Assembly (NCBI GenBank): GCA_016180435.1
Contig: JACPBG010000001.1
Span: forward strand, 8,358-72,357
Direction: 5' to 3'
Origin: Candidatus Sungiibacteriota bacterium
Lineage (GTDB): Bacteria; Patescibacteriota; Minisyncoccia; Sungbacterales; HO2-52-23
Length of the DNA: 64,000 bases
Shown here: positions 1 to 60,775 of the stretch, in pieces
Position numbering within the stretch: position 1 is the stretch's first letter
How the letters are laid out: every line of letters starts with the position of its first letter
Program-made: the position numbers and the translations under genes
The notes under the pieces: model-generated
What the model was told of the DNA's origin: nothing
Database searches by the model: none
The model's input: only the letters and a program-made list of their open reading frames with translations

Positions 1-43
1 GATTCTTGGCTCCTGCAAACTTTGGATTCCCGATTCGTCCCCA

Positions 44-2869: not shown

Positions 2870-5800
2870 CGCGCGCTGGAGGATTCATTTATTGGGGCGG
2901 TGGAAACAGCGCTTCGGCCATGTATCGAATGGACGCATCCGGGAATGTCTCGACTATGCCGAATAGTCCTATCGGAACCGGAGTGAATACGGACGCTTCA
3001 ATTGTTCTTGCTCATCCAAACGGAAAGGATTTATTATTGTTCCAGGCTGGGACAGGGTCTGGTCAGGTTTATCAATTCAACGGAACCTCTTGGTCTAGCG
3101 CTGGAACACATCAGATCAACAGTGCGAACTGGTGGATCGGAACAACTATACCAGAATATGGGGTGATTGTTTTTATCGTCCATCCTGGAGGAACTGGAAC
3201 TCCTTACGCGAGGGTATACAAGCCATCTGGCACATCTTCAACCCCAACCCCCACGCCAACCCCCACACCCACACCAACCCCCACGCCAACTCCGACAGGC
3301 AGTTTAACTTTCGCACAAAAATGTGCCCAGGCAGGAGTACTGAATTGTTTTGGTTTTGATAGCACAAACGATCTCCGTTATACCTGGCCGACCGGAACAC
3401 CTTGCGACTCGGCGCTTTCAGGAAAAACTCGTTACACCATCAGCACCAGTCGAAGCGATCTCGGCAATGTCGCCGCGAATGTCCAAAATGGCAGTTGTTC
3501 ATTTCCGCAAATCGATTCCACTACGGTCAGTTCGGGAGCAGGTTCGCTTAAATTTACGATTCCTTCCAATAGCGGCGCTGATTCGAGCGGATATTTTACC
3601 GAGCCATTCGTAAGAAATGCCAATGGAACTTTCGCATACATTGGTCCGGGTTCACCTCTCGGAAACGTTGTGTACTTCCAATATAAACAGAGGTTTGATC
3701 CCAACTTCTTAAATACCGATTATCTTTGTACAGGCGGAGGATGCGGCGGATGGAAGCAAGTAATTTGGTATGGAAACCCGCCATTAGGATCATCATCTAG
3801 TGGCATTGAGGTTACTCAAAATAATGGTTGGCAACGTGATGTTCCGCAAATGTATGGTCAGCAAGGACATGATGACTATGGCATTCAGGATATCATTGGC
3901 TGTACCTATGCCAAAGCCACAAGCCTTGGGGGTGTTGGGTCAGGATATAGTTCACGCCCTAATTACCAATCTCCTCTCAACCCGACTTGCAAACACTATC
4001 TTCCAAATCAATGGATGGAATTTACTGGGAGAATAGAAGTTCGAGGAGCGAGCAATGCGCAAACAAGTAGAGTGCAGCTATGGATTGACGGACAGCCTGC
4101 TATTGATTATGGCCAGGCAAGAATTGCATGGGGCGGTTCTGACGGGGATGGTATCGGCTCATTCCTTTTGTCTCCGTATCACACAAATAAAGATCCATCG
4201 CAGGCACATCCTACCGGATACACTTGGTATGATGATGTAGTTGTTTCAACCCAGCCGATCGCGATGGCAAATGGTTCAGTACCTCCAACCCCAACTTCAA
4301 CGCCGACTCCCACCCCGACTCCTACTCCCACGCCGACACCAGCATCAACCAAATTCTCAATCAATGACCGAGTTCAAGTTACCAGCGGACCTCTCAATGT
4401 CCGAAGCACCGCCAACGGAACACTTCTTGGCACTCAAGCCACCGGAGCTTTGGGAACAGTCATTGGAGGCCCAACTAACGCCGGAGAATACAACTGGTGG
4501 AATATTAATTTTGACACAGGAGTGGACGGCTGGTCTGCTGAAGATTATTTGGTGAAATATGTTGCGCCTACGCCAACCCCAACCCCCACACCTACCCCAA
4601 CACCAACTCCTACACCTTTAACGACAACCACTGGAAATGTTTATTATGTTGCGACTACGGGAAGCGACTCAACGAGTTGCGGAACATCCTTATCTCCCTG
4701 CAGAACCATAACGTACGCGTACGGCAAGGTTGTCGCTGGAGATGTGATCATCGTAAAGCCCGGAATATACGCGGGAGAAACTAACTACATATATTCCACC
4801 GGAGAGAGAGCGTTTAACCTCAATAAAGCAGGAACCGCTTCCGCTCCGATCACAATCAAATCCGAAACTAAATGGGGCGCCGTTTTAGATGCGCTTGACG
4901 ATGTTAACCACCCTGCGGTTGTCAGGTTCGTCAGTAATTATAATGTTCTTCAGGACTTCAAACTCATTAATGGGCATCACAACGGCATTGTTCTTTACGG
5001 CAACTTCAATAAGATCATTGGGAACGAGATTGCTTACAACGGAATTAATGCCGATTCACTCTCATCATATGGCAAAGACGGTATTTACAGCGACAGCTAT
5101 ACAAATGGCAACCAATATACCGGCAATTACATCCATAATAACGGCCGTCCCTTCTGCCAGGGAGTCACTACGGTATCCTGCAATCTTGACCATGGGCTTT
5201 ATCTTACCGGTGACAACGAAATTGTCGCGAATAACATAGTCATCAATAACAGCGCTTATGGTATCCACATCGCCGGCTACCAGACCGTCAGCAACATGAA
5301 AGTATACAATAATATTTTCGCTTACAACGGACGGTCCGGACTTATATTTTGGCAGCCGGTAAGCAATATAGAAGTAAAAAACAATATTTTTTATAAAAAC
5401 GCCAATTACGCAATTAATACATATAAAACAAGCGGGTCAGGCATCATTATTGATAAAAATATTTTATTTGGAAATGTAAATGGTGCTTACAATTTAATTA
5501 GCATTACTTCCGGTGCCACATTTAACTATACACTTGGAACGAACTATATGTCTAACCCTTTGTTTGTTAATGAAACTTCTGATTTCCACCTCCAATCAAC
5601 CTCTCCTGCGATCAACGCCGGTGCGACTCTCTCTGAAGTAACCGCTGACTTTGATGGCGTCACCCGTCCTCAAGGCACTGCCTATGACATCGGAGCGTAT
5701 GAATATGGAGGAGTTGTGCCAACTCCAACCCCCACACCGACTTCCACGCCAACGCCCACTCCGACGCCGACTCCCATCCCAACTCCAGTTCCGGGCGGGA

Positions 5801-7596
5801 CAATTACTCTTATTAACTTCGGCTCGACTAGCGCGCAAAACACCTTTGGCTTAACCGGCTGGTCAACGCCTATTAAAGACATCTACACTGATTACCGAGC
5901 TATCGGACCCGGTGGGACAGCTATAGTGGTAGGCGACAACTGGACCTACAACTATCAGGGAGTAACCGGTTTAACAAGAACATTTTCTTCGGGAGAAAAG
6001 ATAATAGCAACCTGGTACAACAATACTGCTTCTTCCGTCACTTTCACCCCCAACATCAGCTTTACCGACCCGGACAGAATTTCCTCCGGAGCGGCAGGAA
6101 CCTGGTATCCGATGTCATCCGCCATTATTCCGGCTTTCGGCTCGGCAACAACCAACTTCACATTCACCTCTTCTTCTGCCGGAGCTTATTCCATTGTCAA
6201 TCTCAATAGCAATTACCAAAACACAGGCACGCTTATTGCTGACAAAATTGAACTTTTGCCGGTAGGAGTTTCAACTCCAACTCCAACTCTCACGCCTACA
6301 CCGACACCAACGCCGACACCGACTCCCACTCCCACTCCTGTTTCCACCAAATTCTCCATCAATGACCGAGTTCAGGTTTCTTCCGGACCTCTGAATGTCA
6401 GAAGCGCTGCCAACGGAACACTTCTCGGCACTCAAGCGACCGGAGCTTTGGGCACCGTCATCGGAGGCCCCACAAACGCTAACGGCTACAACTGGTGGAA
6501 TATCAACTACGATTCAGGAGTCGACGGATGGTCTGCCGAAGATTATCTAATTAAATACACCACGCCAACTCCAACACCGACGCCAACGCCTACGCCGACA
6601 TTGACGCCCACTCCAACTCCCACAACAACTATTTCAACAAACCTCGTTGGTTGGTGGAAGTTTGATGAAGGATCGGGATATGTTGCCGCTGATTTTTCCG
6701 GCAACTTCAATACCGGGGTGCTTTTAGGTTCAACCTGGACAGCAGGCAAGTTCGGCAATGCGGTTGCTTTGGATGGATTCAGCAATTACGTTCAAATACC
6801 CGACTCCAACAACTCCTTAGACGCAAGCCATATTACAATTTCCGCTTGGCTCAATAAATCATCAGACGCTCCAACTTGGGGGGATATCGTGGCAAGGCAA
6901 GCAGGCACAAGCTACGGAGACAACTACATTCTTTACTATAACGACAGCGCATCCGACGAATACGCTTTCGGGGTTCAGACCGCAGGAGGAGCAGATCACC
7001 TGATATCCGGGACTCCAAGCTCTGCAGATATGAATATATGGGTCCATATTGCCGCAACTTATGACGGTACCACTCTTAAGCTATACAGAAATGGAGTCCA
7101 AATTGCTTCTAAAGCTCATTTCTACGGAGGGAGTATTGTTTCAGAGACGAGCTCTGTAACAATAGGAGCCGGATTCAACGGCCCGGGAGCAGACGCAGGA
7201 ATTTCCGAATTCTCAAACATTAAAATAGACGATGTCCGCATTTACAATCGCGCGCTTTCGGCCCAGGAAGTTCTGGATATTTATAATTCGGCGGGCGGAG
7301 TTATTCCGACGCCGACTCTCACTCCCACTCCAACTCCCACCCCTTCGCCAGCTGGCGGACCAACACCGACTCCTACGCAAAACAAATTCATCATTGGCCA
7401 ACGCATTACTGTCATTACCAACAGACTCAATGTTCGTTCTTGCCCATCTCTACTTTGCAAGCGGCTTGGAAACCAGAAGAAAGGAGCAGCAGGGACAATT
7501 ATCGGAGGGCCGGTTAAAGCCGATGATTATATCTGGTGGCAAGTTAACTATGACACTGGAGCAGACGGCTGGTCCGTGGAGAATTGGCTTAAATAG
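2767..7596 (+). CDS. Giant secreted/cell-surface protein, continuation. It has no signal peptide of its own and probably joins the 44-2869 ORF through a frameshift near 2840-2870. Domains: Kelch-like repeats, a concanavalin/lyase-like beta-sandwich, three SH3b-like domains, a right-handed beta-helix (pectate-lyase fold) and a LamG (concanavalin A-like) domain, all linked by (PT)n
   Basis: Kelch-like GG/W repeats (FIYWGGGNSASAMYRMD, LLLFQAGTGSGQVYQFNG); SH3b-like KFSINDRVQV[TS]SGPLNVRS...YNWWNIN[FY]D[TS]GVDGWSAEDYL at about 4350-4560, 6340-6560 and 7380-7596; beta-helix NVYYVATTGSD..CRTITYAYGKVVAGDVIIVKPGIY plus NNI[VF]xNN repeats; LamG LVGWWKFDEGSG...AVALDGFSNYVQIPD...IDDVRIYNRALSAQEV; seven PT linkers; hydrophilic N-terminus MADRASCQPSEF. 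Confidence 0.7.
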   Translation: MADRASCQPSEFCKPSGRRQQSGASLSGNYQNWIARAGGFIYWGGGNSASAMYRMDASGNVSTMPNSPIGTGVNTDASIVLAHPNGKDLLLFQAGTGSGQVYQFNGTSWSSAGTHQINSANWWIGTTIPEYGVIVFIVHPGGTGTPYARVYKPSGTSSTPTPTPTPTPTPTPTPTPTGSLTFAQKCAQAGVLNCFGFDSTNDLRYTWPTGTPCDSALSGKTRYTISTSRSDLGNVAANVQNGSCSFPQIDSTTVSSGAGSLKFTIPSNSGADSSGYFTEPFVRNANGTFAYIGPGSPLGNVVYFQYKQRFDPNFLNTDYLCTGGGCGGWKQVIWYGNPPLGSSSSGIEVTQNNGWQRDVPQMYGQQGHDDYGIQDIIGCTYAKATSLGGVGSGYSSRPNYQSPLNPTCKHYLPNQWMEFTGRIEVRGASNAQTSRVQLWIDGQPAIDYGQARIAWGGSDGDGIGSFLLSPYHTNKDPSQAHPTGYTWYDDVVVSTQPIAMANGSVPPTPTSTPTPTPTPTPTPTPASTKFSINDRVQVTSGPLNVRSTANGTLLGTQATGALGTVIGGPTNAGEYNWWNINFDTGVDGWSAEDYLVKYVAPTPTPTPTPTPTPTPTPLTTTTGNVYYVATTGSDSTSCGTSLSPCRTITYAYGKVVAGDVIIVKPGIYAGETNYIYSTGERAFNLNKAGTASAPITIKSETKWGAVLDALDDVNHPAVVRFVSNYNVLQDFKLINGHHNGIVLYGNFNKIIGNEIAYNGINADSLSSYGKDGIYSDSYTNGNQYTGNYIHNNGRPFCQGVTTVSCNLDHGLYLTGDNEIVANNIVINNSAYGIHIAGYQTVSNMKVYNNIFAYNGRSGLIFWQPVSNIEVKNNIFYKNANYAINTYKTSGSGIIIDKNILFGNVNGAYNLISITSGATFNYTLGTNYMSNPLFVNETSDFHLQSTSPAINAGATLSEVTADFDGVTRPQGTAYDIGAYEYGGVVPTPTPTPTSTPTPTPTPTPIPTPVPGGTITLINFGSTSAQNTFGLTGWSTPIKDIYTDYRAIGPGGTAIVVGDNWTYNYQGVTGLTRTFSSGEKIIATWYNNTASSVTFTPNISFTDPDRISSGAAGTWYPMSSAIIPAFGSATTNFTFTSSSAGAYSIVNLNSNYQNTGTLIADKIELLPVGVSTPTPTLTPTPTPTPTPTPTPTPVSTKFSINDRVQVSSGPLNVRSAANGTLLGTQATGALGTVIGGPTNANGYNWWNINYDSGVDGWSAEDYLIKYTTPTPTPTPTPTPTLTPTPTPTTTISTNLVGWWKFDEGSGYVAADFSGNFNTGVLLGSTWTAGKFGNAVALDGFSNYVQIPDSNNSLDASHITISAWLNKSSDAPTWGDIVARQAGTSYGDNYILYYNDSASDEYAFGVQTAGGADHLISGTPSSADMNIWVHIAATYDGTTLKLYRNGVQIASKAHFYGGSIVSETSSVTIGAGFNGPGADAGISEFSNIKIDDVRIYNRALSAQEVLDIYNSAGGVIPTPTLTPTPTPTPSPAGGPTPTPTQNKFIIGQRITVITNRLNVRSCPSLLCKRLGNQKKGAAGTIIGGPVKADDYIWWQVNYDTGADGWSVENWLK

Positions 7597-7614
7597 ATAA
7601 TATATTAACAGCAG

Positions 7615-13277: not shown

Positions 13278-13368
13278 ATCAACGAATAACTAATCTTGTT
13301 ACGAATCAACGAATCATTTCTAAAAAATTCCGATTCGTAAATTCGCACGCGATTCGTTATTCGTTGAT
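13278..13368. repeat. Family E palindromic intergenic element, ACGAATA-rich. Terminal 13-bp inverted repeat ATCAACGAATAAC / GTTATTCGTTGAT
   Basis: Perfect terminal inverted repeat read directly; related copies at 19058-19152 and 60323-60392. Confidence 0.7.
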
Positions 13369-13377
13369 TTTTGCCCA

Positions 13378-14262: not shown

Positions 14263-14395
14263 CTCGGTATTGCTGTTTTGAAACACGACTCGGCCGCTCC
14301 TGCGGCGGCCTCGCTAAGGGTCGAGCAAAGTTTTGCGGCTTTGCCGCAAACCAAGCAACTTTGCTCTCCCATTGTTTCAAAACAGCAATACACTC
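14263..14395. repeat. Family A structured repeat, copy A1. Outer 17-bp inverted repeat ATTGCTGTTTTGAAACA/TGTTTCAAAACAGCAAT, two internal hairpins, core motifs CTAAGGGTCG and CTCCCATTGT
   Basis: Same architecture and core motifs as copies at 17868-18005, 28404-28545, 29893-30090 and 44164-44390. Confidence 0.75.
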
Positions 14396-14410
14396 GCTGA
14401 CGTATTTTTT

Positions 14411-17851: not shown

Positions 17852-17867
17852 TTGTGTGCGGTTTTCT

Positions 17868-18005
17868 CGGCAATTCCAATTTCAGACACGATGCGATTGC
17901 TCCAGCGGCAATCGCGCTAAGGGTCGGTCCGGTTTTCCGCTTTCAGCGGAACCCAGCAAACCGGACCTCCCATTGTCTGAAATTGAAATAGCCTCGACCG
18001 CGCAC
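17868..18005. repeat. Family A structured repeat, copy A2
   Basis: CAATTTCAGAC...GTCTGAAATTG outer inverted repeat; GCTAAGGGTCGG; CCTCCCATTGTCTGAAAT; two internal hairpins. Confidence 0.75.
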
Positions 18006-19046: not shown

Positions 19047-19057
19047 GTATAAATAAA

Positions 19058-19152
19058 ATCAACGAATATCGAATTTCGTACGAATATACGAATGGTTCGA
19101 CGTTGCTCACCATGAATTCGTATATTCGCGTTTGATTCGTTATTCGCTGATG
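19058..19152. repeat. Family E palindromic element (ACGAATA-rich), copy E2
   Basis: AATCAACGAATATCGAAT...ATTCGTATATTCG...GATTCGTTATTCGCTGATG, a long imperfect palindrome. Confidence 0.65.
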
Positions 19153-19359
19153 TTAATGTTTCTTTTTGGCCAATCTTTGTTTGAATTTCTCCACGCGGCC
19201 CGCGGTATCCACGAGTTTAGATCCCCCCGTATAAAAAGGGTGGCATTTTGAACATATTTCAATCTCCAGCTTTTCCTTGGCGGAACCCACCTGGAATTTG
19301 TGGCCGCAGGAACAATCAATTTTGGCCTGGTGATATTGAGGATGAATATCTTTTTTCAT
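19153..19359 (-). CDS. rpmE: 50S ribosomal protein L31
   Basis: MKKDIHPQY...CSCG...[10 protein letters not shown] zinc-ribbon L31. Confidence 0.9.
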
Positions 19360-28403: not shown

Positions 28404-28545
28404 GCTCGGTATCACTATTTCAAAACACGCTCGTTTTTGCCAGCGCAAAAACTCGTTAAGGGTCGGACAAGTTTTCGCCGTCTGTAGACGGCGAACCATG
28501 CAAACTTGTCCTCCCATTGTTTTGAAATAGCGATACGCTCGCCCA
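28404..28545. repeat. Family A structured repeat, copy A3
   Basis: CTATTTCAAAACA/TGTTTTGAAATAG outer inverted repeat; GTTAAGGGTCGG; CCTCCCATTGT; hairpins TTTTTGC-CAGC-GCAAAAA and TCGCCGTC-TGTA-GACGGCGA. Confidence 0.75.
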
Positions 28546-29869: not shown

Positions 29870-29892
29870 GCGGCATTATCAGTAATTTTAAT

Positions 29893-30090
29893 TTCAGACA
29901 CGATTCGCGCTCTCCTGTGGAGCGCTCACTAAAGGTCGGACGCGAAACCGAGCACTCAAATTATTATATTGATGATAGTTCCCGAGTTTATCGAGGGACT
30001 ACCATAATTTATGGCATTATTGATTATCGGAGTGCTCGGACCGAGCTTTCGCGCCCTCCCATTGTCTGAAATTAAAATTACTGAACGCCT
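29893..30090. repeat. Family A structured repeat, long variant, copy A4, carrying a central D-type module
   Basis: TAATTTTAATTTCAGACAC / GTCTGAAATTAAAATTA outer inverted repeat; CTAAAGGTCGG; CCTCCCATTGTCTGAAATT; central TTCCCGAGTTTATCGAGGGACTACC. Confidence 0.75.
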
Positions 30091-30177: not shown

Positions 30178-31035
30178 TCATATCCTAAACCGATTTTTCA
30201 ACATTTTTCGGGCATAAGCCGGGAGTTTGAATGAAGCTATAAATTTTTTAAGCCCTTTTTCGTTCATTTCCGCAAAATACTTATCTCCGAAATCCCCCAG
30301 GCCGGGTACGATAAAGCCGCGTTTATCCAATTTTTTGTCCAACGCTCCGGTTATGATCCGGATTTTAGGATATTTTTGTTTGATTCGGGTGACTCCTATC
30401 GGAGCGGCCACTACTGAATTGATGATTATATTTTGAGTTAGTGCGCCGCATTTTTTGATCCTTAGAACAGCATCCAGAATGGTATGGCCGGTTGCCAGCA
30501 TGGGGTCGGCGATGATTATCACGTCGTTTTTTTCCAGCGCGGGACATAGCTCATAGTTAACAACCGGGTGTAAAGTTTTTTCATCCCGCTGGGAGCTTAA
30601 GTGGTAAAATCGCCTGACACCCAAATTGCGATAACTTTTGCCAAAGGCCAGACCGGAACGCCAGGGCATCAGCACTATTATTCGGGCGCGGCTGCGGACA
30701 CCGGTTATATCTGCGGTCCTGGAGGCCAGCGCTTTTAAAATCCCTTCGGCAGCTTTTCTGAATTCTTTTCCTTTGGTTTGCCGTCTCCAGGGAGATTTCG
30801 GATATCCCTTTCTTAGGATATTAAATTTTTTTTGAAATTCGGGCCGATTTTGGATTAGGACTTCGCAAGAGTTGTTTTTTACCCCGTTAGAACGCCGCCG
30901 ACTTCTGCTCGCCTCGCTAAAGCTATGGCGAAGCGGGTCGGTGGTAACGGCAGAGATAGCCGATGGGGATATAATACTCCCATTGGCAGGTTGCGAAGCG
31001 CCCGTTCTAATGGGGTTTGCCATTTGCATCAGCAT
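30178..31035 (-). CDS. upp: Uracil phosphoribosyltransferase. The start is uncertain; the ORF extends upstream through the family B repeat
   Basis: Alignable along its length to UPRT: ...IIIADPMLATGHTI...IVPGLGDFGDKYF. Confidence 0.8.
   Translation of the reverse strand: MLMQMANPIRTGASQPANGSIISPSAISAVTTDPLRHSFSEASRSRRRSNGVKNNSCEVLIQNRPEFQKKFNILRKGYPKSPWRRQTKGKEFRKAAEGILKALASRTADITGVRSRARIIVLMPWRSGLAFGKSYRNLGVRRFYHLSSQRDEKTLHPVVNYELCPALEKNDVIIIADPMLATGHTILDAVLRIKKCGALTQNIIINSVVAAPIGVTRIKQKYPKIRIITGALDKKLDKRGFIVPGLGDFGDKYFAEMNEKGLKKFIASFKLPAYARKMLKNRFRI
30882..31015. repeat. Family B element, copy B1. Terminal inverted repeat CCCCGTTAGAACG / CGTTCTAATGGGG; conserved 5' GAACGCCGCCGACT; internal TATAAT-containing palindrome GGGGATATAATACTCCC
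   Basis: Read directly; second copy at 53702-53803. Confidence 0.7.
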
Positions 31036-31059
31036 GGTTTTATTATAATATAGAATGGT

Positions 31060-31782: not shown

Positions 31783-31837
31783 CAGATAGCATCTGGCGTG
31801 CTATCTTTTATATGGGCGTTTCTATCGATCGTATCTT

Positions 31838-31918
31838 GAAGAGTATTGTTCGAGCGAAGTCGAGAACTTTCCTAAGGTAGCCGCGCTCGAGAGCCAGCGC
31901 GGAATTATCCAGTTAAAC
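31838..31918. repeat. Family C 80-nt element, copy C1, immediately upstream of ppiB
   Basis: AGAGTATTGTTCGAGCGAAGTCGAGAACTTTCCTAAGGTAGCCGCGCTCGAGAGCCAGCGCGGAATTATCCAGTTAAAC; about 95% identical to 58432-58512. Confidence 0.8.
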
Positions 31919-31920
31919 TC

Positions 31921-32580
31921 ATGGCAAATTCTAATGCTAAAATTTTCGTAATAATTATAGCGATTTTAATTATAGCAGCTGGGATTCATTATATAACTAC
32001 GCAATATTCCGGAGGAGGGGAGGATGTTTCTAATCAAACTGTTTCTGCGCTGGCGCCGGAATCCGCCAAAAATTTTATGTATAAAATAACTATTGAGACC
32101 AATAAGGGAAAAATCCAATTTGAAACGTATGATGCGGATGCGCCCAAAGCCGTGGAAAATTTTGTGGCTCTTGCGGATAAAGGGTATTACAACGGCGTAA
32201 TTTTTCACCGCGTTATTAAAGGATTCATGATACAGGGCGGCGATCCTTTTTGTGCGTCAAGTCCCGCCGATGATAAGGGGCCGTGCGGCACCGGAGGGCC
32301 GGGATATAAATTTGCGGACGAATTGGATTCGACAGCCGAATCGTACAAAAATGGATATAAAAAAGGCGTGGTGGCCATGGCTAATGCCGGTCCGGATACT
32401 AACGGCAGCCAGTTTTTTATAATGCTGGAAAATTATCCGTTGCCGAATAACTATACGATTTTCGGAAAAGTTGTTTCCGGCCAAGATGTAGTGGATGCTA
32501 TTGGCGGCGTTAAAACAGGCGCGGGAGATCGCCCGGTTGATGCCGTAATTATGCAGAAAGTCACCGTGGATAAATTATGA
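31921..32580 (+). CDS. ppiB: Peptidyl-prolyl cis-trans isomerase, cyclophilin type, membrane-anchored
   Basis: HRVIKGFMIQGGDP...GVVAMANAGPDTNGSQFFI; N-terminal TM helix. Confidence 0.85.
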   Translation: MANSNAKIFVIIIAILIIAAGIHYITTQYSGGGEDVSNQTVSALAPESAKNFMYKITIETNKGKIQFETYDADAPKAVENFVALADKGYYNGVIFHRVIKGFMIQGGDPFCASSPADDKGPCGTGGPGYKFADELDSTAESYKNGYKKGVVAMANAGPDTNGSQFFIMLENYPLPNNYTIFGKVVSGQDVVDAIGGVKTGAGDRPVDAVIMQKVTVDKL

Positions 32581-36739: not shown

Positions 36740-36899
36740 ACTACACGCGGTCGTCCAGTTTTACTTGACAGTGTTGGATAAAATATGGTATAATTATATC
36801 ATTGAACTTTGATAATTTTTTGAAAGTTTGAATTATATTCTTCGAGCGAAGTCGAGAAGATACCTGTGATACCGATTCATTTGCAAGTCGGAGGTTAAT

Positions 36900-50785: not shown

Positions 50786-51988
50786 TTACGGAAGAGTTCG
50801 CCTGCGATATGATCGGAAAATTAGCATAATGATAAGCAGGATTGCAATACCGATAAGCGTCCACACCCATCCTGATATTTTAATACCCGACGAAATCACT
50901 TGGGCGGTTTCTGCCGCGGCTGTATTCTGATTTTTTGTCCCTATGCTGGCAGTTTCTCCTTCCTCATTTATTGAAGAACCCGCCGCTTCATCCATAATCG
51001 TTTCGCCCGCTGTTTCGGCACTGGCAATACTTTCCGTTTCTCCCGTAATACTTTGCCCGGCCACCATCGGTTCGCCCGTTCCGGTTTCTTCGCCTATGAC
51101 GGAAACCCCGCCGTTAATTGTTGATGCGCCCGGAGGTTTTGTCCCGGAAGTAGTAAAGCTTTGTTCAAAACTCACCGTATCGGGAGACGCGTGAGAAATT
51201 GTACGGTAGTAATACGTTGTTCCGGGCAAAAGGCCGGTTAGAACAACCGAATGGAATGTAACGCCGCTAAGTGAAGCTGGAGTGTCAAATTCCGGTGTTG
51301 AAAAAGCATATCCGTAATTGGGGGATATGGAAAAATTGAAAGTTCCTGAAATCGTGTCATATATCACTCGGCTGGTTGAGATAAAACTTGTAAGCCAGGT
51401 TATCGTTGCCGTGGTTTCTCCGACAGATACATCCCGTTCGTTATTAATGACAAGGCCTTGAATTCCACTACCTCCGCCGCCGCCACCTCCGCCACCGCCC
51501 CCTCCCGCCTCTTCTTCGCCGCCGCCTTCATCACCGTTAAATCCGATAAGAATATCAAAACCAAGTGATTTTTCCTGATAGGAATTATTTGCGCCCGGAA
51601 CAAATCGCACCAAGAAATCATATTGCGTTTGGGCGCCCCCGCCCGCAAGATCCGAGAGAGATATTTCTCCGGCGGTCAAAAATTCCGCAAGCGTTGTGGT
51701 CGCGTAGCGTAAAATCCCGTTTTCGTATATTCCGATTTCAAAAACATCGGCTAGCCCGTCCGGGTCGCTTTCGTTTATCGCTTCCACAATGATCGTTTTG
51801 GAGTCCGGCGTATTATTTTTTACTTTTGCCCACCGGTTTACTTCCGATCCCGGCAGAAAATTGGCCTCGTTAAAAAGCGGGGTTGCCTCAAATGTAACCT
51901 CCAAATCATCCGGGGCCGCCAAGACAGCCGGAGCCCACAAAAGCGCGGTTATTACGAATATCAAATTGTATTTTATGTATTTCTTCAT
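50786..51988 (-). CDS. Secreted surface protein: Sec signal peptide, Gly13 tract, FN3-like domain, Thr/Glu-rich spacer, C-terminal TM anchor
   Basis: Signal peptide MKKYIKYNLIFVITALLWAPAVLA; GGGGGGGGGGGGS; TATITWLT...TTYYYR; C-terminal WVWTLIGIAILLIIMLIFRSYRRR. Confidence 0.5.
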   Translation of the reverse strand: MKKYIKYNLIFVITALLWAPAVLAAPDDLEVTFEATPLFNEANFLPGSEVNRWAKVKNNTPDSKTIIVEAINESDPDGLADVFEIGIYENGILRYATTTLAEFLTAGEISLSDLAGGGAQTQYDFLVRFVPGANNSYQEKSLGFDILIGFNGDEGGGEEEAGGGGGGGGGGGGSGIQGLVINNERDVSVGETTATITWLTSFISTSRVIYDTISGTFNFSISPNYGYAFSTPEFDTPASLSGVTFHSVVLTGLLPGTTYYYRTISHASPDTVSFEQSFTTSGTKPPGASTINGGVSVIGEETGTGEPMVAGQSITGETESIASAETAGETIMDEAAGSSINEEGETASIGTKNQNTAAAETAQVISSGIKISGWVWTLIGIAILLIIMLIFRSYRRRTLP

Positions 51989-53859
51989 ATGTTTGCTTGC
52001 CCCGTTAGACTTGCCCCGTTGGGAGCTTGCTCTCCTATGGGGTCTTCTCCGGAAGGTTCTAGGGGGGGTTCTTCTTGGGGCGGCTCAATTATTTCTACTG
52101 GTTCAGGTGCCTCAATTGCTTCTTCTATTAGCGGAGGAAGTTCATTCACCGTGTCCTCCGGTTCAGCCGGAGAAGTTTCTTCCGGAGTTGAAGTTGTTTC
52201 AATTGTCTCCGGCTCTTTGGCATTTTCTTCTTCGGGTATAATAGCCTCGGCTTCGGATTCGCTGGCATCCGCTGGCGTATCGTTGTTTTCATCAGTCGGT
52301 AAAACCGCCTCTTCCGCAGCCGGTTCTTCCGTCAGCAGGGTTTCCTCTGTCGGCAAAGTATCTTCCGTTGTTACTATTTCCTCCGTATCTTCCGGAGGTA
52401 TTACGGTTTCTTCTCCCGCCGTTGGGATCGATTCATCTGTTATCGGCTCGGTTGTAATTTCTTCATCGGGTATCCTGGTTTCAGTCACTGGTTCGGTCGT
52501 TGTTGATTGAGTTTCCGGCAAATCCCCGGTTAGAATTATGACGTTATCGGGCAACGGCTCGCTATCCTCAGCGGCCTCCTCTAAAATAATTGCCGGCGTT
52601 GAAGAATTATCAATTTTATTCATCCGTCCCGGAGTCGGGATCGGGTCAACCCAGTCGCCGATGCCGTCCGGAATTCGCGCGTATGACTTGTTGGGCGGAA
52701 CGCCGCCGCACTCACCCGACGCATCGGTGGAATTTTCATCACCGGGACTTGGCTCAATTTCACAAAAATCATTGTCTTCGTATTCATACGAGTCCATCAA
52801 TACATTATCACTATTAAACAGTCGCACCGTATCTCCGGTATTGTTAAGAATCGGCTTATTCATATAGATAACCAGCCAGCTTTTGCCTCCGATAATGGTT
52901 GTAGCGGGCGCTGTATTCAGCGCGGTGATAACTACTTTATTGCCCTCGCCGTCAGTAGCATCTCGGGTGTACCAGCCGGCCACATCTATTGGCTCGGTGC
53001 TGTTGTTGTAAATTTCAATCCATTCTCCTTGCGGCATATCGCTTGCGTCATTGCCAAAATCAAATCCATAAGCAACGCCGTCCGGCCTTGGCAAGAATTC
53101 ATTTAATACCACCATCCTGGCCGTGATAATAAAGCTCATTCTTTCCTCATCCGTAAATCCTCCGGCGCCATAAGAAGCGACATTGGTTTGCCATCCTTTG
53201 AATACAATGTCAAACCGGCATTCCGCTCCGTTAGTGAAAGAATCTTCGTCCACCGGCAGTTCAATGTTGAATTTCCAAGTCCCCAAAGCAGTTAAAGCGG
53301 AAGTAGCAAGCGACATCAAATCGCCCTCATATTTCTCAACTCCGTTTAATTTCGCCTGAATATTAAGCGCGTCGCAAAAATCATCTTCGTCAGAAATTTC
53401 TTCGGCGCCCAGAGTGTATTGGAAGTCCATTCCGCCGCTGTTAAGCAAAACCGAACTTTTGGAAACGGTTTCGTCCAGGCCTATGGATCCTTCATATTCA
53501 TAAGAGCTTAGGGCAAAATCAAGCGAAGCGGCGGTAAAAATGTTATTGGATGACCCCTCGGTGTCGCTGTAATAAGCCAGGGTTTGTCCTATCGCGAAAA
53601 GGCCGGTCCAATTCAAGGAAAATATAAGAAGCAATGCCACGCTCTTAAATAGCGGGGCTATTTGCAGGGCGCCGGTTTCTTGTTTCGGGATTCTTTTTAC
53701 TCCGTTAGAACGCCGCCGACTCTGTGGGCGGTAAAGTATAGAATAAGCTTGGGGGAGTATAATGCTCTCATAAATGGGTCGTGAAGCATCCGTTCTAACG
53801 GGGCTTATCGGTATCCGGATTGAACCGTCTTTTAATTTTTTAAACGCGATTTTTTTCAT
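51985..53859 (-). CDS. Large secreted protein with a SipW-cognate-type N-terminal region, a lamin-tail domain (LTD) and a long acidic Thr/Glu/Pro-rich C-terminal tail
   Basis: TasA-class leader LAYYSDTEGSSNNIFTAASLDFAL; LTD: VLNEFLPRPDGVAYGFDFGNDASDMPQGEWIEIYNNSTEPIDVAGWYTRD; the predicted N-terminus overlaps repeat B2, so the true start is uncertain. Confidence 0.6.
   Translation of the reverse strand: MKKIAFKKLKDGSIRIPISPVRTDASRPIYESIILPQAYSILYRPQSRRRSNGVKRIPKQETGALQIAPLFKSVALLLIFSLNWTGLFAIGQTLAYYSDTEGSSNNIFTAASLDFALSSYEYEGSIGLDETVSKSSVLLNSGGMDFQYTLGAEEISDEDDFCDALNIQAKLNGVEKYEGDLMSLATSALTALGTWKFNIELPVDEDSFTNGAECRFDIVFKGWQTNVASYGAGGFTDEERMSFIITARMVVLNEFLPRPDGVAYGFDFGNDASDMPQGEWIEIYNNSTEPIDVAGWYTRDATDGEGNKVVITALNTAPATTIIGGKSWLVIYMNKPILNNTGDTVRLFNSDNVLMDSYEYEDNDFCEIEPSPGDENSTDASGECGGVPPNKSYARIPDGIGDWVDPIPTPGRMNKIDNSSTPAIILEEAAEDSEPLPDNVIILTGDLPETQSTTTEPVTETRIPDEEITTEPITDESIPTAGEETVIPPEDTEEIVTTEDTLPTEETLLTEEPAAEEAVLPTDENNDTPADASESEAEAIIPEEENAKEPETIETTSTPEETSPAEPEDTVNELPPLIEEAIEAPEPVEIIEPPQEEPPLEPSGEDPIGEQAPNGASLTGQANI
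53702..53803. repeat. Family B element, copy B2. Inverted repeat CCGTTAGAACG / CGTTCTAACGG; shared 5' GAACGCCGCCGACT; internal GGGGGAGTATAATGCTC
   Basis: Read directly; lies at the 5' end of the LTD-protein ORF. Confidence 0.7.
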
Positions 53860-56419: not shown

Positions 56420-56783
56420 AATAATAAAAGCAGTTATTTAGTGTTTTTCAGTTAGTTTATACCCCATACCGTATGGCACGGGAGCTATTACGCCCGTGCG
56501 CCATTTGGCACAGGGCCTACTCTCTGAAAAACAGTTTTAGTTTATAATGATTTTCTACCCACACTGAACATAATTCAGATCTTAATTAGTGTGGGGGTTT
56601 CCCGGCATCGACCTTTCCCTCCTAAAAACCCAGGCGTAATCCCTCTATATTATTAAAAGGATTACGCCTGCGTTCCAAGTCATATCTATTAAGATTGGGT
56701 ACATCTTATCATACAACAGTAATGAAGTCAAGCATGCGCTCGCTTATGCGGTATTCGGGCATTGTAATTTCAGACACGATTCG

Positions 56784-58346: not shown

Positions 58347-58431
58347 ATTAAGACGGCCTTTAAATTAATGAAACTCCGACCTGCAAGCAGGTCGGTATCA
58401 AAGGAAACTTCTCGATTCGCTTTGCTCTCTC

Positions 58432-58512
58432 GAAGAGTATTGTTCGAGCGAAGTCGAGAATTTTCCTGAGGTAACCGCGCTCGAGAGCCAGCGCGGAATT
58501 ATCAAGTTAAAC
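58432..58512. repeat. Family C 80-nt element, copy C2, upstream of atpB
   Basis: AGAGTATTGTTCGAGCGAAGTCGAGAATTTTCCTGAGGTAACCGCGCTCGAGAGCCAGCGCGGAATTATCAAGTTAAAC. Confidence 0.8.
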
Positions 58513-58565
58513 CGAGAACAAATCCTGCATTTGATTCGTCGGATGAATATGATATGCTTTAACTT

Positions 58566-59665: not shown

Positions 59666-59717
59666 ATGTGATGCCAATCCGATGCGAATTTAATGCCAAT
59701 TTAGCGAATTGCCAATA

Positions 59718-59777
59718 ATTATTCTTCGAGTGTAATCGAGAAGTACCTTAAGGTATTATTCTCGACAAGCTCGAATG
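59718..59777. repeat. Family D palindromic element upstream of atpF (about 56-bp near-palindrome centred on CTTAAG)
   Basis: TTCTTCGAGTGTAATCGAGAAGTACCTTAAGGTATTATTCTCGACAAGCTCGAATG. Confidence 0.7.
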
Positions 59778-59800: not shown

Positions 59801-60322
59801 TTGGCATCATTGCTGATGAGCGAGCTTATTCATAATTTCGGGATTGACTGGAAATTGCTTCTGGCCCAAGCAGTAAATTTTTTAATCTTACTTTTTATTT
59901 TAAAACGCTTTGCCTATGAGCCGATTTTGAAAATGCTGCGTTCCCGTAAAGAGGGAATAGAAAAAGGATATGAATTTATGCGCGAAGCGGACGAACGGCT
60001 TCGCGGCGTGGACAAATTTCGCGAGGACAAGATGAAGGAGGCGAATCAGGAGGCGCTGTTGATAGTAAAGCGCGGGGAGGAGTCGGGAAAAGAACGGCAG
60101 GCAGAAATTATCGTGTCAGCCAATAAAAAGGCCGAATCGGTTATGCTTGAAGCCAAGCGAATTATAGGCGAGGAACGCGCCAAACTGGAAGAAAGCGTAT
60201 CGCGTGATGCGGAGGTCCTGGTGCGATCCGGGCTTGAAAAGGTGCTTGGCAAAGTCCCCGCGGAAGTGAGAGATAAAGAGTTGATTCATGAAGCAATGAG
60301 GGAATTAAAGGTAGTACGTTAA
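59801..60322 (+). CDS. atpF: F0F1 ATP synthase subunit b
   Basis: N-terminal TM helix plus a long charged helix; position in the operon. Confidence 0.75.
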
Positions 60323-60392
60323 ATCAACGAATAACGAATCCGAAACGAATATACGAATTCGTTTATTCGTAAAAGATTCGCTATTCGATGAT
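60323..60392. repeat. Family E palindromic element (ACGAATA-rich), copy E3, between atpF and atpH
   Basis: AAATCAACGAATAACGAATCCGAAACGAATATACGAATTCGTTTATTCGTAAAAGATTCGCTATTCGATGAT. Confidence 0.65.
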
Positions 60393-60394
60393 GG

Positions 60395-60775
60395 ATGAAG
60401 TACTCATCAAAACAATACGCTTCCGTTATTCTTTCCGCATTTGACGGAAAATCGGAAAAAGAGCGGAAAGAAATTTTGAAGAGATTTGTGGATGTTCTTG
60501 CCAAGAACCGCGATATGGCGCGGCTGGGAGCAATTTTGCGTGAAATTGAGCGCGAGTTTTTAAAAAAATCCGGCAGGAAAAAGATATGGGTTGAATCCGT
60601 ATCTCCCGTATCGGATGATTTGCGCCAAGAAATTGAAAAGACAGTTGCAGGAAAAACCTATTTATATGAGAAAATAAACCCATCGCTTCTGGCCGGTCTC
60701 AGGATTTTGATTAACGACGAGCTTTTGATTGACGCCAGCGCCAAGCGGCAAATTGATAAATTATTTTTGAAATAA
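60395..60775 (+). CDS. atpH: F0F1 ATP synthase subunit delta (OSCP), short form
   Basis: ASVILSAF...LLAGLRILINDELLIDASAKRQIDKL; position in the operon. Confidence 0.7.
   Translation: MKYSSKQYASVILSAFDGKSEKERKEILKRFVDVLAKNRDMARLGAILREIEREFLKKSGRKKIWVESVSPVSDDLRQEIEKTVAGKTYLYEKINPSLLAGLRILINDELLIDASAKRQIDKLFLK

What the first reader, a model, noticed from the sequence alone, without database searches (positions are those of the whole stretch)
30882..31015. Family B: an inverted-repeat element (CCCCGTTAGAACG...CGTTCTAAYGGGG) carrying TATAAT-centred palindromes, sitting at the 5' ends of upp and the LTD-protein gene
Two copies (30882-31015 and 53702-53803) share 25 nt at the 5' end (CCGTTAGAACGCCGCCGACT) and a mirror-image 3' end. 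Each contains a palindrome built around TATAAT (GGGGATATAATACTCCC and GGGGGAGTATAATGCTC). In both cases the element lies just inside the longest predicted ORF at the gene's 5' end. It contributes an implausible N-terminal extension with the shared peptide SRRRSNGVK. This suggests the true starts lie downstream, and that the element is a mobile promoter or 5'-UTR cassette that can be read through. A remnant (AACGGGGCAAG x2) occurs at 51995-52020.
Basis: partly seen in the sequence, partly recalled or inferred. Interest (0 to 1): 0.55.

Follow-up and report, generated by a model that had tools for sequence, protein, structure and literature searches.

The report
Mobile palindrome inserted in-frame in genes
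Two copies of a small (104/134 bp) mobile palindromic DNA element have landed inside the first codons of two genes of a Candidatus Sungbacteria genome without breaking the reading frame. [quoted passage not shown]

Summary
Two related elements (window 30882-31015 and 53700-53803, both minus strand) have 13-14-nt terminal inverted repeats (CCCCGTTAGAACG/CGTTCTAACGGGG), internal palindromes and short flanking direct repeats.

The elements are mobile and are read through, but they are not promoter or 5'-UTR cassettes, and the true starts are not downstream. Orthologs that lack the element conserve the residues on both sides:
- upp: MLKQIA|KNISGEVLVQ versus window MLMQMA[46 aa]KNNSCEVLIQ
- LTD gene: ...DGSIRIPI|RKILKKETGALQ versus ...DGSIRIPI[36 aa]KRIPKQETGALQ

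A syntenic DNA empty site shows a clean 138-nt insertion in upp.

About 46 further copies occur in Saccharibacteria, Parcubacteria and groundwater metagenomes. They are flanked by TNAA/TNAA repeats, and length plus repeat is usually a multiple of 3 (108/138). Three of the six frames are open. Copies lie in-frame within dnaG, aspS, alr, a Mur ligase gene and others, or in tiny gaps at stop or start codons.

Best reading: a non-autonomous MITE of the Rickettsia-palindromic-element kind, previously undescribed in the literature I could search. The mobilising enzyme is unknown. The fixed orientation relative to the target is unexplained.

The parts
30878..31015 (-). Copy 1 insertion: the 134-nt element (30882-31015) plus the TAAA that follows it on the gene strand. 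Total 138 nt, or 46 codons, inserted after codon 6 of upp.
   Evidence: 106 bits. The empty site in syntenic L075 shows exactly 138 extra nt.
31003..31016 (-). Copy 1, 5' terminal inverted repeat ACCCCATTAGAACG. It carries one A.C mismatch against its partner.
30881..30894 (-). Copy 1, 3' terminal inverted repeat CGTTCTAACGGGGT
30959..30987 (-). Copy 1 internal palindrome P3 (GCCAATGGGAG-TATTATA-TCCCCATCGGC).
30895..30944 (-). Copy 1 internal palindrome P4 (CCACCGAC...GTCGGCGG), including the 30-nt hairpin extension that defines the 134-nt subtype.
30178..31035 (-). upp (uracil phosphoribosyltransferase) CDS, 285 codons, starting MLMQMA. It is interrupted in-frame by copy 1.
   Evidence: In the AlphaFold model the element-encoded N-terminal stretch, about the first 49 residues, has pLDDT <50 and the rest >90.
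31042..31047 (-). TATAAT 6 nt upstream of the upp ATG. It is the likely native -10 box, lies outside the element, and is conserved in the element-free ortholog L075.
   Evidence: Read from the sequences shown; inference.
53696..53803 (-). Copy 2 insertion: the 104-nt element (53700-53803) plus TAAA. Total 108 nt, or 36 codons, inserted after codon 18 of the LTD gene, in the n-region of its SipW-type signal peptide.
   Evidence: 92 bits. Orthologs lack the 36 aa.
53791..53804 (-). Copy 2, 5' terminal inverted repeat GCCCCGTTAGAACG
53699..53712 (-). Copy 2, 3' terminal inverted repeat CGTTCTAACGGAGT. The GGAG in place of GGGG gives one mismatch.
53748..53774 (-). Copy 2 internal palindrome P3, degenerate. 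Its loop is CATTATA, which reads TATAATG on the plus strand.
53713..53731 (-). Copy 2 internal palindrome P4 (CCGCC-CACAGAGT-CGGCGG)
51985..53859 (-). Lamin-tail-domain (LTD) protein CDS, 624 codons, starting MKKIAFKK immediately after sipW. It is interrupted in-frame by copy 2.
51995..52020 (-). Possible solo-end remnant: tandem AACGGGGCAAG x2, forming the last codons of the LTD gene. It resembles the right end plus flank of a sister subfamily (L047 7527-7544, CTTCTAACGGGGGCAAG). Not statistically secure.
   Evidence: not detected.

Best explanation
Family B is a non-autonomous, palindromic mobile DNA element: a MITE of the 'protein-coding palindrome' kind typified by Rickettsia palindromic elements (RPEs). 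It is spread across Patescibacteria/CPR lineages. The window comes from Candidatus Sungbacteria.

Anatomy:
- 13-14-bp terminal inverted repeats, (A)CCCCGTTAGAACG...CGTTCTAACGGGG(T).
- Two internal palindromes, P3 and P4.
- Optional extra hairpins that produce size classes of 104, 123 and 134 nt.

It inserts at R-T-N-A-A sites and leaves a 3-4-nt direct repeat (TAAA, TGAA or TCAA).

Why it does not break genes:
- Element plus repeat is usually a multiple of three (108 or 138 nt).
- Three of the six reading phases have no stop codon.
- An insertion into a gene in one of those phases therefore adds a 36- or 46-residue hydrophilic peptide instead of disrupting the gene. The sense frame reads (V)NPVRTGAS.PADGSI.LPSAIS..TAD.SRRRSNGV. 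One antisense frame reads FTPLERRRLLSAV..EIADGSVMLPSAG.EAPVLTGF.

In the window, both copies are recent, lineage-specific, in-frame insertions just downstream of the genuine start codons of upp (after codon 6) and of the LTD gene (after codon 18, in the signal-peptide n-region). They are most likely translated as disordered N-terminal inserts.

Shown here: insertion relative to orthologs, the DNA empty site, terminal repeats, co-varying flanking repeats, the in-frame state, and the cross-phylum distribution.

Inferred: mobilisation in trans by an unidentified enzyme, actual translation of the insert, and selective neutrality.
For: 1. Insertion into coding sequence.
- Upp ortholog P0002 (84% identity) and six further orthologs lack the 46 aa but match on both sides.
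- DNA of syntenic L075 (VIT1-upp-nrdB) reads ATAGCAAAAAACATC where the window has ATGGCAAA[134 nt]TAAAAAACAAC.
- LTD orthologs P0122, P0123 and P0132 conserve the residues before the insertion point and lack the 36 aa. P0123 also matches after the insertion point.

2. It is a family.
- Six copies in GTDB genomes of Saccharibacteria, Parcubacteria and Patescibacteria.
- About 38 copies in 35 metagenome contigs.
- More divergent subfamilies share the core CCCCGTTAGAA, with compensatory changes in the terminal repeats (GTTACAAG/CTTGTAAC; TCCC/GGGA).

3. Flanking direct repeats.
- TAAA/TAAA in 26 of 39 copies and TGAA/TGAA in 3 of those 39. The divergent subfamilies add 2 more TGAA/TGAA and one TCAA/TCAA.
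- The left-right association has p = 4e-6.

4. In-frame copies inside real genes, confirmed by Pfam.
- dnaG, aspS, alr, a Mur-ligase gene, a histidine-kinase gene and a ComF-like gene.
- The AspRS alignment to PDB 6hhv shows roughly 37 extra residues exactly at the element.
- No copy whose length is not a multiple of three lies inside a gene. Those copies sit at stop or start codons.

5. Frames and structure.
- Three of six frames are open in about two thirds of copies.
- The element-encoded part of Upp has pLDDT <50, whereas the UPRTase fold is >90.

6. No strand bias in wobble pairs.
- 60 G.U against 66 A.C, with weak covariation. This fits a DNA palindrome rather than a strand-specific RNA.

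7. Subfamily relationships.
- The two window copies belong to different subfamilies. Each is closer to copies in other organisms than to the other window copy: interior identity is 80-84% and 71-76% to foreign copies, against 46% between the two.
Against: - No transposase or autonomous partner with the same terminal repeats was found. I could only inspect about 0.55 Mb of fetched DNA and did not annotate it systematically.
- The orientation of the element relative to the asymmetric TNAA site is fixed in 37 of 39 copies. Deviations from TNAA occur only on the left flank (8 of 8). In the upp empty site the right-hand T is not target-derived. This is not what a symmetric cut-and-paste DDE transposon is expected to give.
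- Internal palindromes are conserved across phyla at about 80% nucleotide identity. That could mean function rather than recent spread.
- Translation of the insert is inferred, not observed.
- Peptide-level database searches recovered few additional host proteins. The abundance of intragenic copies is therefore documented only for about a dozen genes.
Confidence: 0.8

Rival explanations
1. One reading: a mobile promoter or 5'-UTR cassette. The TATAAT palindrome would drive or regulate the downstream gene, and the real start codon would lie downstream of the element.
For: - TATAAT is present in the P3 loop of both window copies.
- Both copies sit near gene 5' ends.
- In some loci the element lies just upstream of a start codon, and its GGGG end could act as a Shine-Dalgarno mimic: L001 GGGGTAAAACACCATG and L061 GGGGTGAAAAACATG.
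Against: - Orthologs conserve the coding sequence upstream of the element, and there is no start codon downstream.
- TATAAT is on the antisense strand and is not conserved in the family.
- The promoter scan found no site inside the element.
- Many copies are mid-gene or in the opposite orientation.
Confidence: 0.03
2. An intervening sequence removed after transcription. The 14-bp terminal stem would juxtapose the flanking TNAA repeats, and the element would be excised from the mRNA or bypassed by the ribosome. Essential proteins would then be made without the insert.
For: - Copies lie inside essential single-copy genes (dnaG, aspS, alr) in tiny genomes.
- There is a strong terminal stem and identical short repeats at both junctions, reminiscent of take-off/landing or splice-site ambiguity.
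Against: - Every intragenic copy has a length that is a multiple of three and is free of stops in the host frame. Copies with other lengths, or with stops, are found only outside genes. That is the signature of translation, not excision.
- There is no strand bias in G.U pairs.
- No ribozyme or intron family matches.
Confidence: 0.05
3. A structured non-coding RNA or cis-regulatory RNA motif, a relative of Rfam RAGATH-4, rather than a DNA-level mobile element.
For: - RAGATH-4 is the best Rfam match. It aligns over its full length (1-131) on the same antisense strand for two copies, at 20.5 and 25.9 bits. The aligned segments include AUAG..AUGGG...CCCAU and GGGUUUA.
- Folding z-scores are about -4.
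- P3 shows some compensatory changes.
Against: - The scores are far below the gathering score of 104.4.
- Bona fide RAGATH-4 (146-152 bits) are single-copy loci in a fixed neighbourhood (RAGATH-16, RAGATH-36, tRNA arrays) of 50-130-kb phage contigs. They are not dispersed or intragenic.
- Wobble pairs show no strand preference.
- The covariation comes mostly from one inherited pair (57-83).
- Host genes are functionally unrelated.
Confidence: 0.05
4. A retron-related element. The terminal stem would be a1/a2, the unpaired G after the 5' arm would be the branching G, and copies would be spread by a retron-type reverse transcriptase.
For: - In L061 the element lies 12 nt upstream of a retron-type RT gene (NCBIfam retron_St85_RT, 120.7 bits).
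- The architecture resembles a retron ncRNA: a 13-bp terminal stem, a nearly invariant G next to it, and hairpins.
Against: - The RT score is below the family cut-off of 235.
- It is the only RT in about 0.3 Mb of element-bearing DNA.
- In L061 the element is flanked by TGAA/TGAA. Removing it restores a canonical GGGAGGTGAAAAACATG ribosome-binding site and start. It therefore looks like one more ordinary insertion.
- Dispersed copies are full-length, including both arms, which msDNA would not give.
Confidence: 0.02
5. A domesticated peptide module. The inserted 36-46 residues would confer a selected function, such as a localisation or interaction tag, on the host proteins.
For: - The peptide sequence is conserved among copies.
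- Both window copies lie at N-termini. One lies in a signal-peptide n-region, where added positive charge (SRRRS) might matter.
Against: - The peptide conservation simply mirrors nucleotide conservation.
- Two unrelated peptides (sense and antisense frames) are used in host proteins, a third frame is also open, and many copies are intergenic.
- The insert is predicted to be disordered.
- The closest orthologs do without it.
Confidence: 0.05

Closest known systems
Rickettsia palindromic elements (RPE; Ogata et al. 2000 Science 290:347; Ogata et al. 2002 Genome Res 12:808; summarised in PMC10969869)
   Same: - 100-150-bp palindromic repeats that insert in-frame into unrelated, often essential, protein-coding genes of small reduced genomes.
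- Each carries an open frame that encodes a conserved peptide.
- They also occur in intergenic DNA.
- No transposase has been identified.
   Different: - No sequence relationship was tested or is apparent.
- The host is Patescibacteria/CPR rather than Rickettsia, with copies in several CPR lineages (Saccharibacteria, Parcubacteria, Sungbacteria) instead of one genus.
- There are clear 13-14-bp terminal inverted repeats and a defined TNAA flanking repeat with fixed orientation.
- Host proteins are read through in at least two frames, on both strands.
Bacterial MITEs in general, for example Correia/NEMIS, RUP and ERIC (review PMC10969869)
   Same: - Small size, terminal inverted repeats and short flanking direct repeats.
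- No coding capacity for a transposase.
- Multiple size classes produced by internal indels.
- Presence/absence polymorphism and occasional in-frame fusions.
   Different: - No cognate insertion sequence is known.
- Insertion is orientation-specific relative to an asymmetric target, and only the left flank deviates. That is atypical for DDE-mobilised MITEs.
- Copy number per genome is low (2 in 64 kb), but the phylogenetic spread is wide.
Rfam RF03153 RAGATH-4 RNA
   Same: - Best, but sub-threshold, Rfam match.
- Similar overall shape: a terminal stem enclosing two or three hairpins.
- A few shared sequence blocks.
   Different: - 20-26 bits against a gathering score of 104.4.
- True RAGATH-4 are single-copy, syntenic loci in large phage genomes. 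They are not dispersed repeats inside host genes.
IS200/IS605-derived palindrome-associated elements (PATEs) and other single-strand or site-specific integrating elements (from my own knowledge of the family)
   Same: - Orientation-specific insertion next to a short specific tetranucleotide.
- The element's own end carries a similar tetranucleotide.
- Conserved hairpins.
   Different: - IS200/IS605 ends are not terminal inverted repeats.
- No HUH transposase or TnpB was seen.
- Wobble pairs show no strand bias.

Membership tests
MITE (miniature inverted-repeat transposable element) | Small size (<~300 bp) with no transposase gene | tested here: met
   Copies are 50-134 nt. Only short frames that read through the element are present.
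MITE (miniature inverted-repeat transposable element) | Terminal inverted repeats | tested here: met
   A 13-14-bp stem is 98.8% paired over 35 copies, although the search pattern required it. Model-found divergent copies keep it through compensatory changes.
MITE (miniature inverted-repeat transposable element) | Target-site duplication | tested here: inconclusive
   Flanks are TNAA/TNAA and co-vary (p = 4e-6). The upp empty site shows that 3 nt (AAA) were duplicated. The right-hand T is not target-derived, and only the left flank deviates.
MITE (miniature inverted-repeat transposable element) | Multiple dispersed copies and presence/absence polymorphism | tested here: met
   About 46 copies lie in unrelated contexts. 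The element is absent from the syntenic upp locus L075 and from the LTD orthologs.
MITE (miniature inverted-repeat transposable element) | A cognate autonomous insertion sequence with the same terminal repeats | not tested
   Only fetched loci were scanned for terminal-repeat pairs. None were 0.7-3 kb apart in a way that enclosed a transposase, but the ORFs were not annotated. Collection scans are limited to patterns of 600 nt or less.
Rickettsia palindromic elements (RPE) | Palindromic repeat of ~100-150 bp inserted in-frame in protein-coding genes and encoding a conserved peptide | tested here: met
Rickettsia palindromic elements (RPE) | Sequence homology to RPE-1..10, or occurrence in Rickettsia | not tested
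The hosts here are CPR bacteria, so membership in the RPE families proper is not claimed.
Rfam RAGATH-4 (RF03153) | Score at or above the curated gathering score (104.4 bits) | tested here: not met
   20.5 and 25.9 bits. Genuine members score 146-152 bits.
Sigma-70 promoter cassette | -35 and -10 hexamers with correct spacing, oriented towards the downstream gene | tested here: not met
   The scan found no site inside the element. The TATAAT is on the opposite strand and is not conserved.
Retron ncRNA (msr-msd) | Located immediately next to a retron reverse-transcriptase gene | tested here: not met
   Only 1 of about 46 copies (L061) is next to such a gene. No other RT motif occurs in any locus or in the window.
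Self-splicing intron or ribozyme | Match to a catalytic RNA family; tolerated in any phase or length inside genes | tested here: not met
   No Rfam hit. Intragenic copies all have lengths that are multiples of three and are stop-free.

The most novel reading that the evidence does not exclude
The family is an active, horizontally spreading mobile palindrome that has adapted to the gene-dense genomes of CPR bacteria by being compatible with reading frames. Its features would be a length that is a multiple of three, three stop-free phases, and ends that can mimic a ribosome-binding site or supply a stop codon. It would integrate by an orientation-specific, non-DDE mechanism, either site-specific or single-strand recombination at a TNAA core, using an enzyme not yet linked to any MITE. 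It would then be a cross-phylum source of peptide insertions in essential proteins such as DnaG, AspRS and Alr.
Probability: 0.25. Interest if true: 0.7.

Novelty: new member of a known kind. Interest (0 to 1): 0.6.

Why it matters
**Annotation.** It corrects two gene models. The N-terminal 'extensions' are real coding sequence interrupted by a mobile insert, and the starts should not be moved downstream. NCBI's Upp start is probably 4 codons too late.

**Biology.** 'Protein-coding palindromes' were described as a peculiarity of Rickettsia. An unrelated family doing the same thing in Saccharibacteria, Parcubacteria and Sungbacteria, inside dnaG, aspS and alr, suggests a general route by which selfish DNA persists in very compact, reduced genomes. 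It also shows that this route generates insertions in core proteins.

**Practical uses.**
- The elements are handy markers of recent DNA exchange among CPR lineages.
- They are a confounder for homology-based annotation, for indel-based phylogenetic markers and for structure prediction of CPR proteins.

**Open mechanism.** The fixed orientation relative to the TNAA target points to an integration mechanism that is not yet understood.

Tried and rejected
- **RNAalifold on the family alignment** recovered only the terminal stem. I defined P2-P4 by hand. Covariation turned out weak and without strand bias, so I dropped the 'conserved structured RNA' idea that the cross-phylum conservation first suggested.
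- **Peptide searches.**
  - The 38-aa consensus was too short for the tool.
  - The profile search of the 5.8-billion-protein set returned 1 hit from 55 candidates. It did not even recover P0001 or P0121, so it says nothing about abundance.
  - The exhaustive search of representatives gave only 9 hits. About six of these carry a recognisable copy of the peptide, including P0243, P0245/P0246, P0248 and P0249.
- **Viral contigs.** No copy of the element was found.
- **RAGATH-4.** The term is absent from the searchable literature. The 2017 motif paper does not mention RAGATH in its main text, and no supplement is held. The 2015 paper is not held. I therefore fetched genuine RAGATH-4 loci from phage contigs and showed that they behave differently.
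- **Integron attC.** The repeat contains GTTAGAA/TTCTAAC, reminiscent of core and inverse-core sites. The order is reversed, copies are not in arrays, and they lie inside genes. Rejected on the sequence alone.
- **Intein.** The insert is too small and has no intein boundary residues.
- **Alternative genetic code.** Not needed, because long ORFs read normally with table 11.
- **Exact transposition chemistry.** I could not decide between a duplication of 2, 3, 4 or 5 nt. Perfect repeats make the registers indistinguishable, and only the upp empty site is informative.
Full report
**1. The observation**

Both reported copies are present. The two host genes are on the minus strand.

On the minus strand, copy 1 (window 30882-31015, 134 nt) reads CCCCATTAGAACGG...GGCGTTCTAACGGGG. 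Copy 2 (53700-53803, 104 nt) reads CCCCGTTAGAACGG...GGCGTTCTAACGGAG. They align along their whole length apart from a 30-31-nt indel.

- The 11-mer of the terminal repeat is over-represented: 5 matches against 0.77 expected.
- Both copies fold much better than shuffled controls (z about -4).
- At its gathering thresholds, Rfam finds only two tRNAs in the window.
- The ORF tables confirm that both elements lie in the 5' part of the longest ORFs of upp (30178..) and of a lamin-tail-domain (LTD) gene (51985-53859). Both are read in the same frame, giving ...SRRRSNGVK.

**2. The element is not private to this genome**

A gapped terminal-repeat pattern scanned over one genome per GTDB species returned 39 stretches. 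Those matching on both strands, plus L017, which matched on one strand only, are true homologs. They are three Saccharibacteria, two Parcubacteria and one Patescibacteria MAG.

The same idea applied to JGI metagenomes gave 35 contigs with about 38 copies. After removing duplicates there are 39 distinct copies. Lengths are mostly 104 nt, and also 134, 123, 122, 131 and 102-107 nt.

A covariance model built from 35 copies finds exactly two copies in the window, at 106 and 92 bits, both on the minus strand. In the fetched loci it finds further, more divergent subfamilies. These share only the core CCCCGTTAGAA, sometimes with compensatory changes in the two arms.

No copy is in IMG/VR viral contigs.

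**3. Both window copies are in-frame insertions into coding sequence**

The window organism is Candidatus Sungbacteria. P0001 and P0121 are 100% identical to the window proteins and lie on a 364,844-bp contig.

*upp.* The closest Upp ortholog is P0002 (84% identity, 239 aa). It begins MLKQIAKNISGEVLVQNRPEL. The window ORF reads MLMQMA-[NPIRTG...SNGV, 46 aa]-KNNSCEVLIQNRPEF. Other orthologs also lack the 46 residues.

The contig encoding P0002 is syntenic (VIT1-upp-nrdB). Its DNA reads ...AAAACCATGCTAAAACAAATAGCAAAAAACATC.... The window reads ...AAAACCATGCTGATGCAAATGGCAAA[CCCC-134 nt-GGGG]TAAAAAACAAC.... That is a clean 138-nt insertion, with three A's duplicated.

No ATG, GTG or TTG lies in frame between the element and the conserved Upp core. 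A TATAAT sits 6 nt upstream of the ATG in both genomes. The start is therefore upstream of the element, at 31035.

*LTD gene.* Orthologs P0122, P0123 and P0132 begin MxKIxFKKxKDGSIRIP. P0123 then continues directly, IRKILKKETGALQIAPLF. The window has MKKIAFKKLKDGSIRIPI-[36 aa]-KRIPKQETGALQIAPLF. This insertion lies in the n-region of a SipW-type signal peptide.

An AlphaFold model of the annotated Upp gives pLDDT <50 for the element-encoded N-terminal stretch, about the first 49 residues. The UPRTase fold scores >90.

**4. The same holds elsewhere, including in essential genes**

ORFs that span a copy, checked with Pfam, show in-frame copies in the following genes:
- DNA primase, splitting the DNAG_N domain.
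- Aspartyl-tRNA synthetase, within the OB fold.
- Alanine racemase, between the N and C domains.
- A Mur-ligase-like protein.
- A histidine kinase N-terminus.
- A ComF-like protein.

Alignment of the AspRS to PDB 6hhv shows that query residues 55-94 correspond to three residues of the solved chain.

Some host genes read the element in the sense frame. Others (dnaG, aspS, a second LTD gene) read it in an antisense frame, FTPLERRR...APVLTGFT.

Across copies, three of the six frames are stop-free in about two thirds of the copies. The other three are closed by TAG or TAA in the repeats and flanks.

Copies whose length plus four is not a multiple of three are never intragenic. Instead, copies sit exactly at the stop codon of the upstream gene (the flanking TAA is the stop in at least 7 loci). 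Others supply a TAG stop from the repeat, or lie 3-18 nt upstream of a start codon.

Seven of ten independent subfamily archetypes have a length that is a multiple of three. Counting the L047 outer element as an eleventh archetype that is not, the tally is 7 of 11. By my estimate p is roughly 0.02-0.04. I treat this as suggestive only.

**5. Ends and target**

Of 39 copies, 26 are flanked TAAA/TAAA and 3 TGAA/TGAA. The divergent subfamilies add two more TGAA/TGAA, one TCAA/TCAA and one GCAAG/GCAAG. The left-right association has p = 4e-6. The flank is therefore a duplication or a shared recombination core.

Three features are unusual:
- The element's internal asymmetry is oriented the same way relative to TNAA in 37 of 39 copies.
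- All 8 imperfect cases deviate on the left flank, and the right flank always keeps T-N-A-A.
- In the upp empty site the target has C where the right junction has T.

I could not decide between a 2-, 3- or 4-nt duplication, nor identify the enzyme. No transposase was recognised. The only notable neighbour is a retron-type reverse transcriptase in L061. There the element sits between a canonical GGGAGG ribosome-binding site and the ATG, flanked TGAA/TGAA, like any other insertion. No other RT motif exists in any locus.

**6. RNA or DNA?**

The hand-defined structure has a terminal stem P1, a small P2, an 11-bp P3 with a 7-nt loop, and P4 with or without a 30-nt extension. It is 92% paired. Covariation is weak and dominated by one inherited pair.

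G.U pairs (60) and A.C pairs (66, which would be G.U on the other strand) are balanced. This is what decaying DNA palindromes give, not a strand-specific RNA.

The best Rfam match is RAGATH-4, at 20.5-25.9 bits against a gathering score of 104.4. Genuine RAGATH-4 loci, which I fetched from IMG/VR, score 146-152 bits. They are single-copy, syntenic loci next to RAGATH-16, RAGATH-36 and tRNA arrays in large phage contigs. That is a different behaviour. I treat the resemblance as a lead at most.

**7. The promoter idea**

The TATAAT is the P3 loop read on the plus strand, which is antisense to both genes. The family consensus loop is CATTACA, or TGTAATG on the other strand. The scan finds no promoter-like site inside the element. 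The one site found, at 31017-31046 on the plus strand, belongs to the divergent VIT1 gene and lies outside the element.

**8. Age and spread**

The two window copies belong to different subfamilies. Each is closer to copies in other organisms than to the other window copy. Copy 1 interior identity is 84% to L044 and 80% to a Saccharibacteria copy. Copy 2 is 76% to L062. Between the two window copies it is 46%.

Both insertions are absent from orthologs at 77-84% protein identity, so they are relatively recent. Each has one mismatch in its terminal stem. Nucleotide identity of 80% between elements in lineages whose proteins are far more diverged implies either horizontal spread or strong constraint.

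**9. Comparison with what is known**

Functionally this matches Rickettsia palindromic elements: palindromic repeats of about 100-150 bp that insert in-frame into unrelated genes and encode a conserved peptide (PMC10969869, citing Ogata et al. 2000 and 2002).

Formally it meets the MITE criteria that could be tested: size, terminal repeats, dispersed polymorphic copies and flanking repeats. It has no known autonomous partner.

Searches of the held literature for MITEs or palindromic elements in CPR/Patescibacteria returned nothing relevant.

I therefore file it as a new member of a known kind, with an unexplained orientation-specific integration.

**10. Verdict**

Confidence is 0.8 for the explanation that this is a non-autonomous, ORF-compatible mobile palindrome, translated as a peptide insert.

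Noticed in passing
window 29879-30084 (related pieces at 14263-14397, 17866-17989, 28409-28542, 56755-56783): A second repeat family: a ~206-nt element with perfect 22-nt terminal inverted repeats (TCAGTAATTTTAATTTCAGACA / TGTCTGAAATTAAAATTACTGA), lying between the convergent nrdB and upp genes. The syntenic locus L075 has only ~10 nt there against ~308 nt in the window, so this too looks like an insertion.
   Followed up: partly
window 31834-31932 and 58428-58526 (partial copies at 36828-36865 and 59712-59749): A 99-nt repeat, 89% identical between the two copies. The first copy runs into the start of the peptidyl-prolyl isomerase gene (31921). It contains the hairpins TTCGAGCGAAGTCGAGAA and CCGCGCTCGAGAGCCAGCGCGG.
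   Followed up: no
window 13333-13371, 19055-19155, 60321-60395: An ATTCGT-rich inverted and direct repeat family (ATTCGTATATTCG...GATTCGTTATTCG) occurring at three places.
   Followed up: no
window 1-7600: Pro/Thr-linker repeats (ACNCCN period) and ~2-kb internal duplications (for example 4283-4582 versus 6281-6580, 79% identical) in what look like giant surface-protein genes.
   Followed up: no
window 31021-31035 (minus strand): NCBI's protein (P0001, 281 aa) starts at the third ATG (MANPIRTG). Alignment with orthologs (MLKQIAK...) supports the first ATG at 31035 (MLMQMA, 285 aa). A TATAAT lies only 6 nt upstream of it, which suggests a leaderless or very short-leader mRNA. The arrangement is conserved in L075.
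   Followed up: partly
L047 7296-7544 (same arrangement in L065 2300-2540): Nested insertion: the 123-nt element (flanked TAAA) sits inside a 112-nt sister element. The sister element has ends CCCCGTTAGAAGT/ACTTCTAACGGGG and is flanked GCAAG/GCAAG.
   Followed up: partly
L061 275-1611: One copy lies between the ribosome-binding site and the start of a retron-type reverse transcriptase gene (best NCBIfam match retron_St85_RT, 120.7 bits, below its cut-off). A perfect 30-nt palindrome (CATTCTCACATTCTGCAGAATGTGAGAATG) lies just upstream.
   Followed up: partly
L060 251-544: A group I intron (Rfam RF00028, 62.4 bits) lies on the same CPR contig that carries three copies of the element, one of them inside dnaG.
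   Followed up: no
L077-L089 (IMG/VR contigs of 50-130 kb): Genuine RAGATH-4 RNAs lie ~175 nt from RAGATH-16. In three of the eight loci scanned (L082, L084, L087), the longer ones, they are also within ~2.4 kb of RAGATH-36 and near tRNA arrays. This is a conserved non-coding RNA cluster in a clade of large phages.
   Followed up: partly
L057 3383 and L050 3349: Long upstream ORFs (497 and 211 codons) run into the element and end at the TAG inside its terminal repeat (CCC CGT TAG). In L057 the element appears to have replaced the gene's original C-terminus and stop codon. In L050 a 487-codon antisense ORF reads through the same copy, so that 211-codon ORF may be spurious.
   Followed up: no
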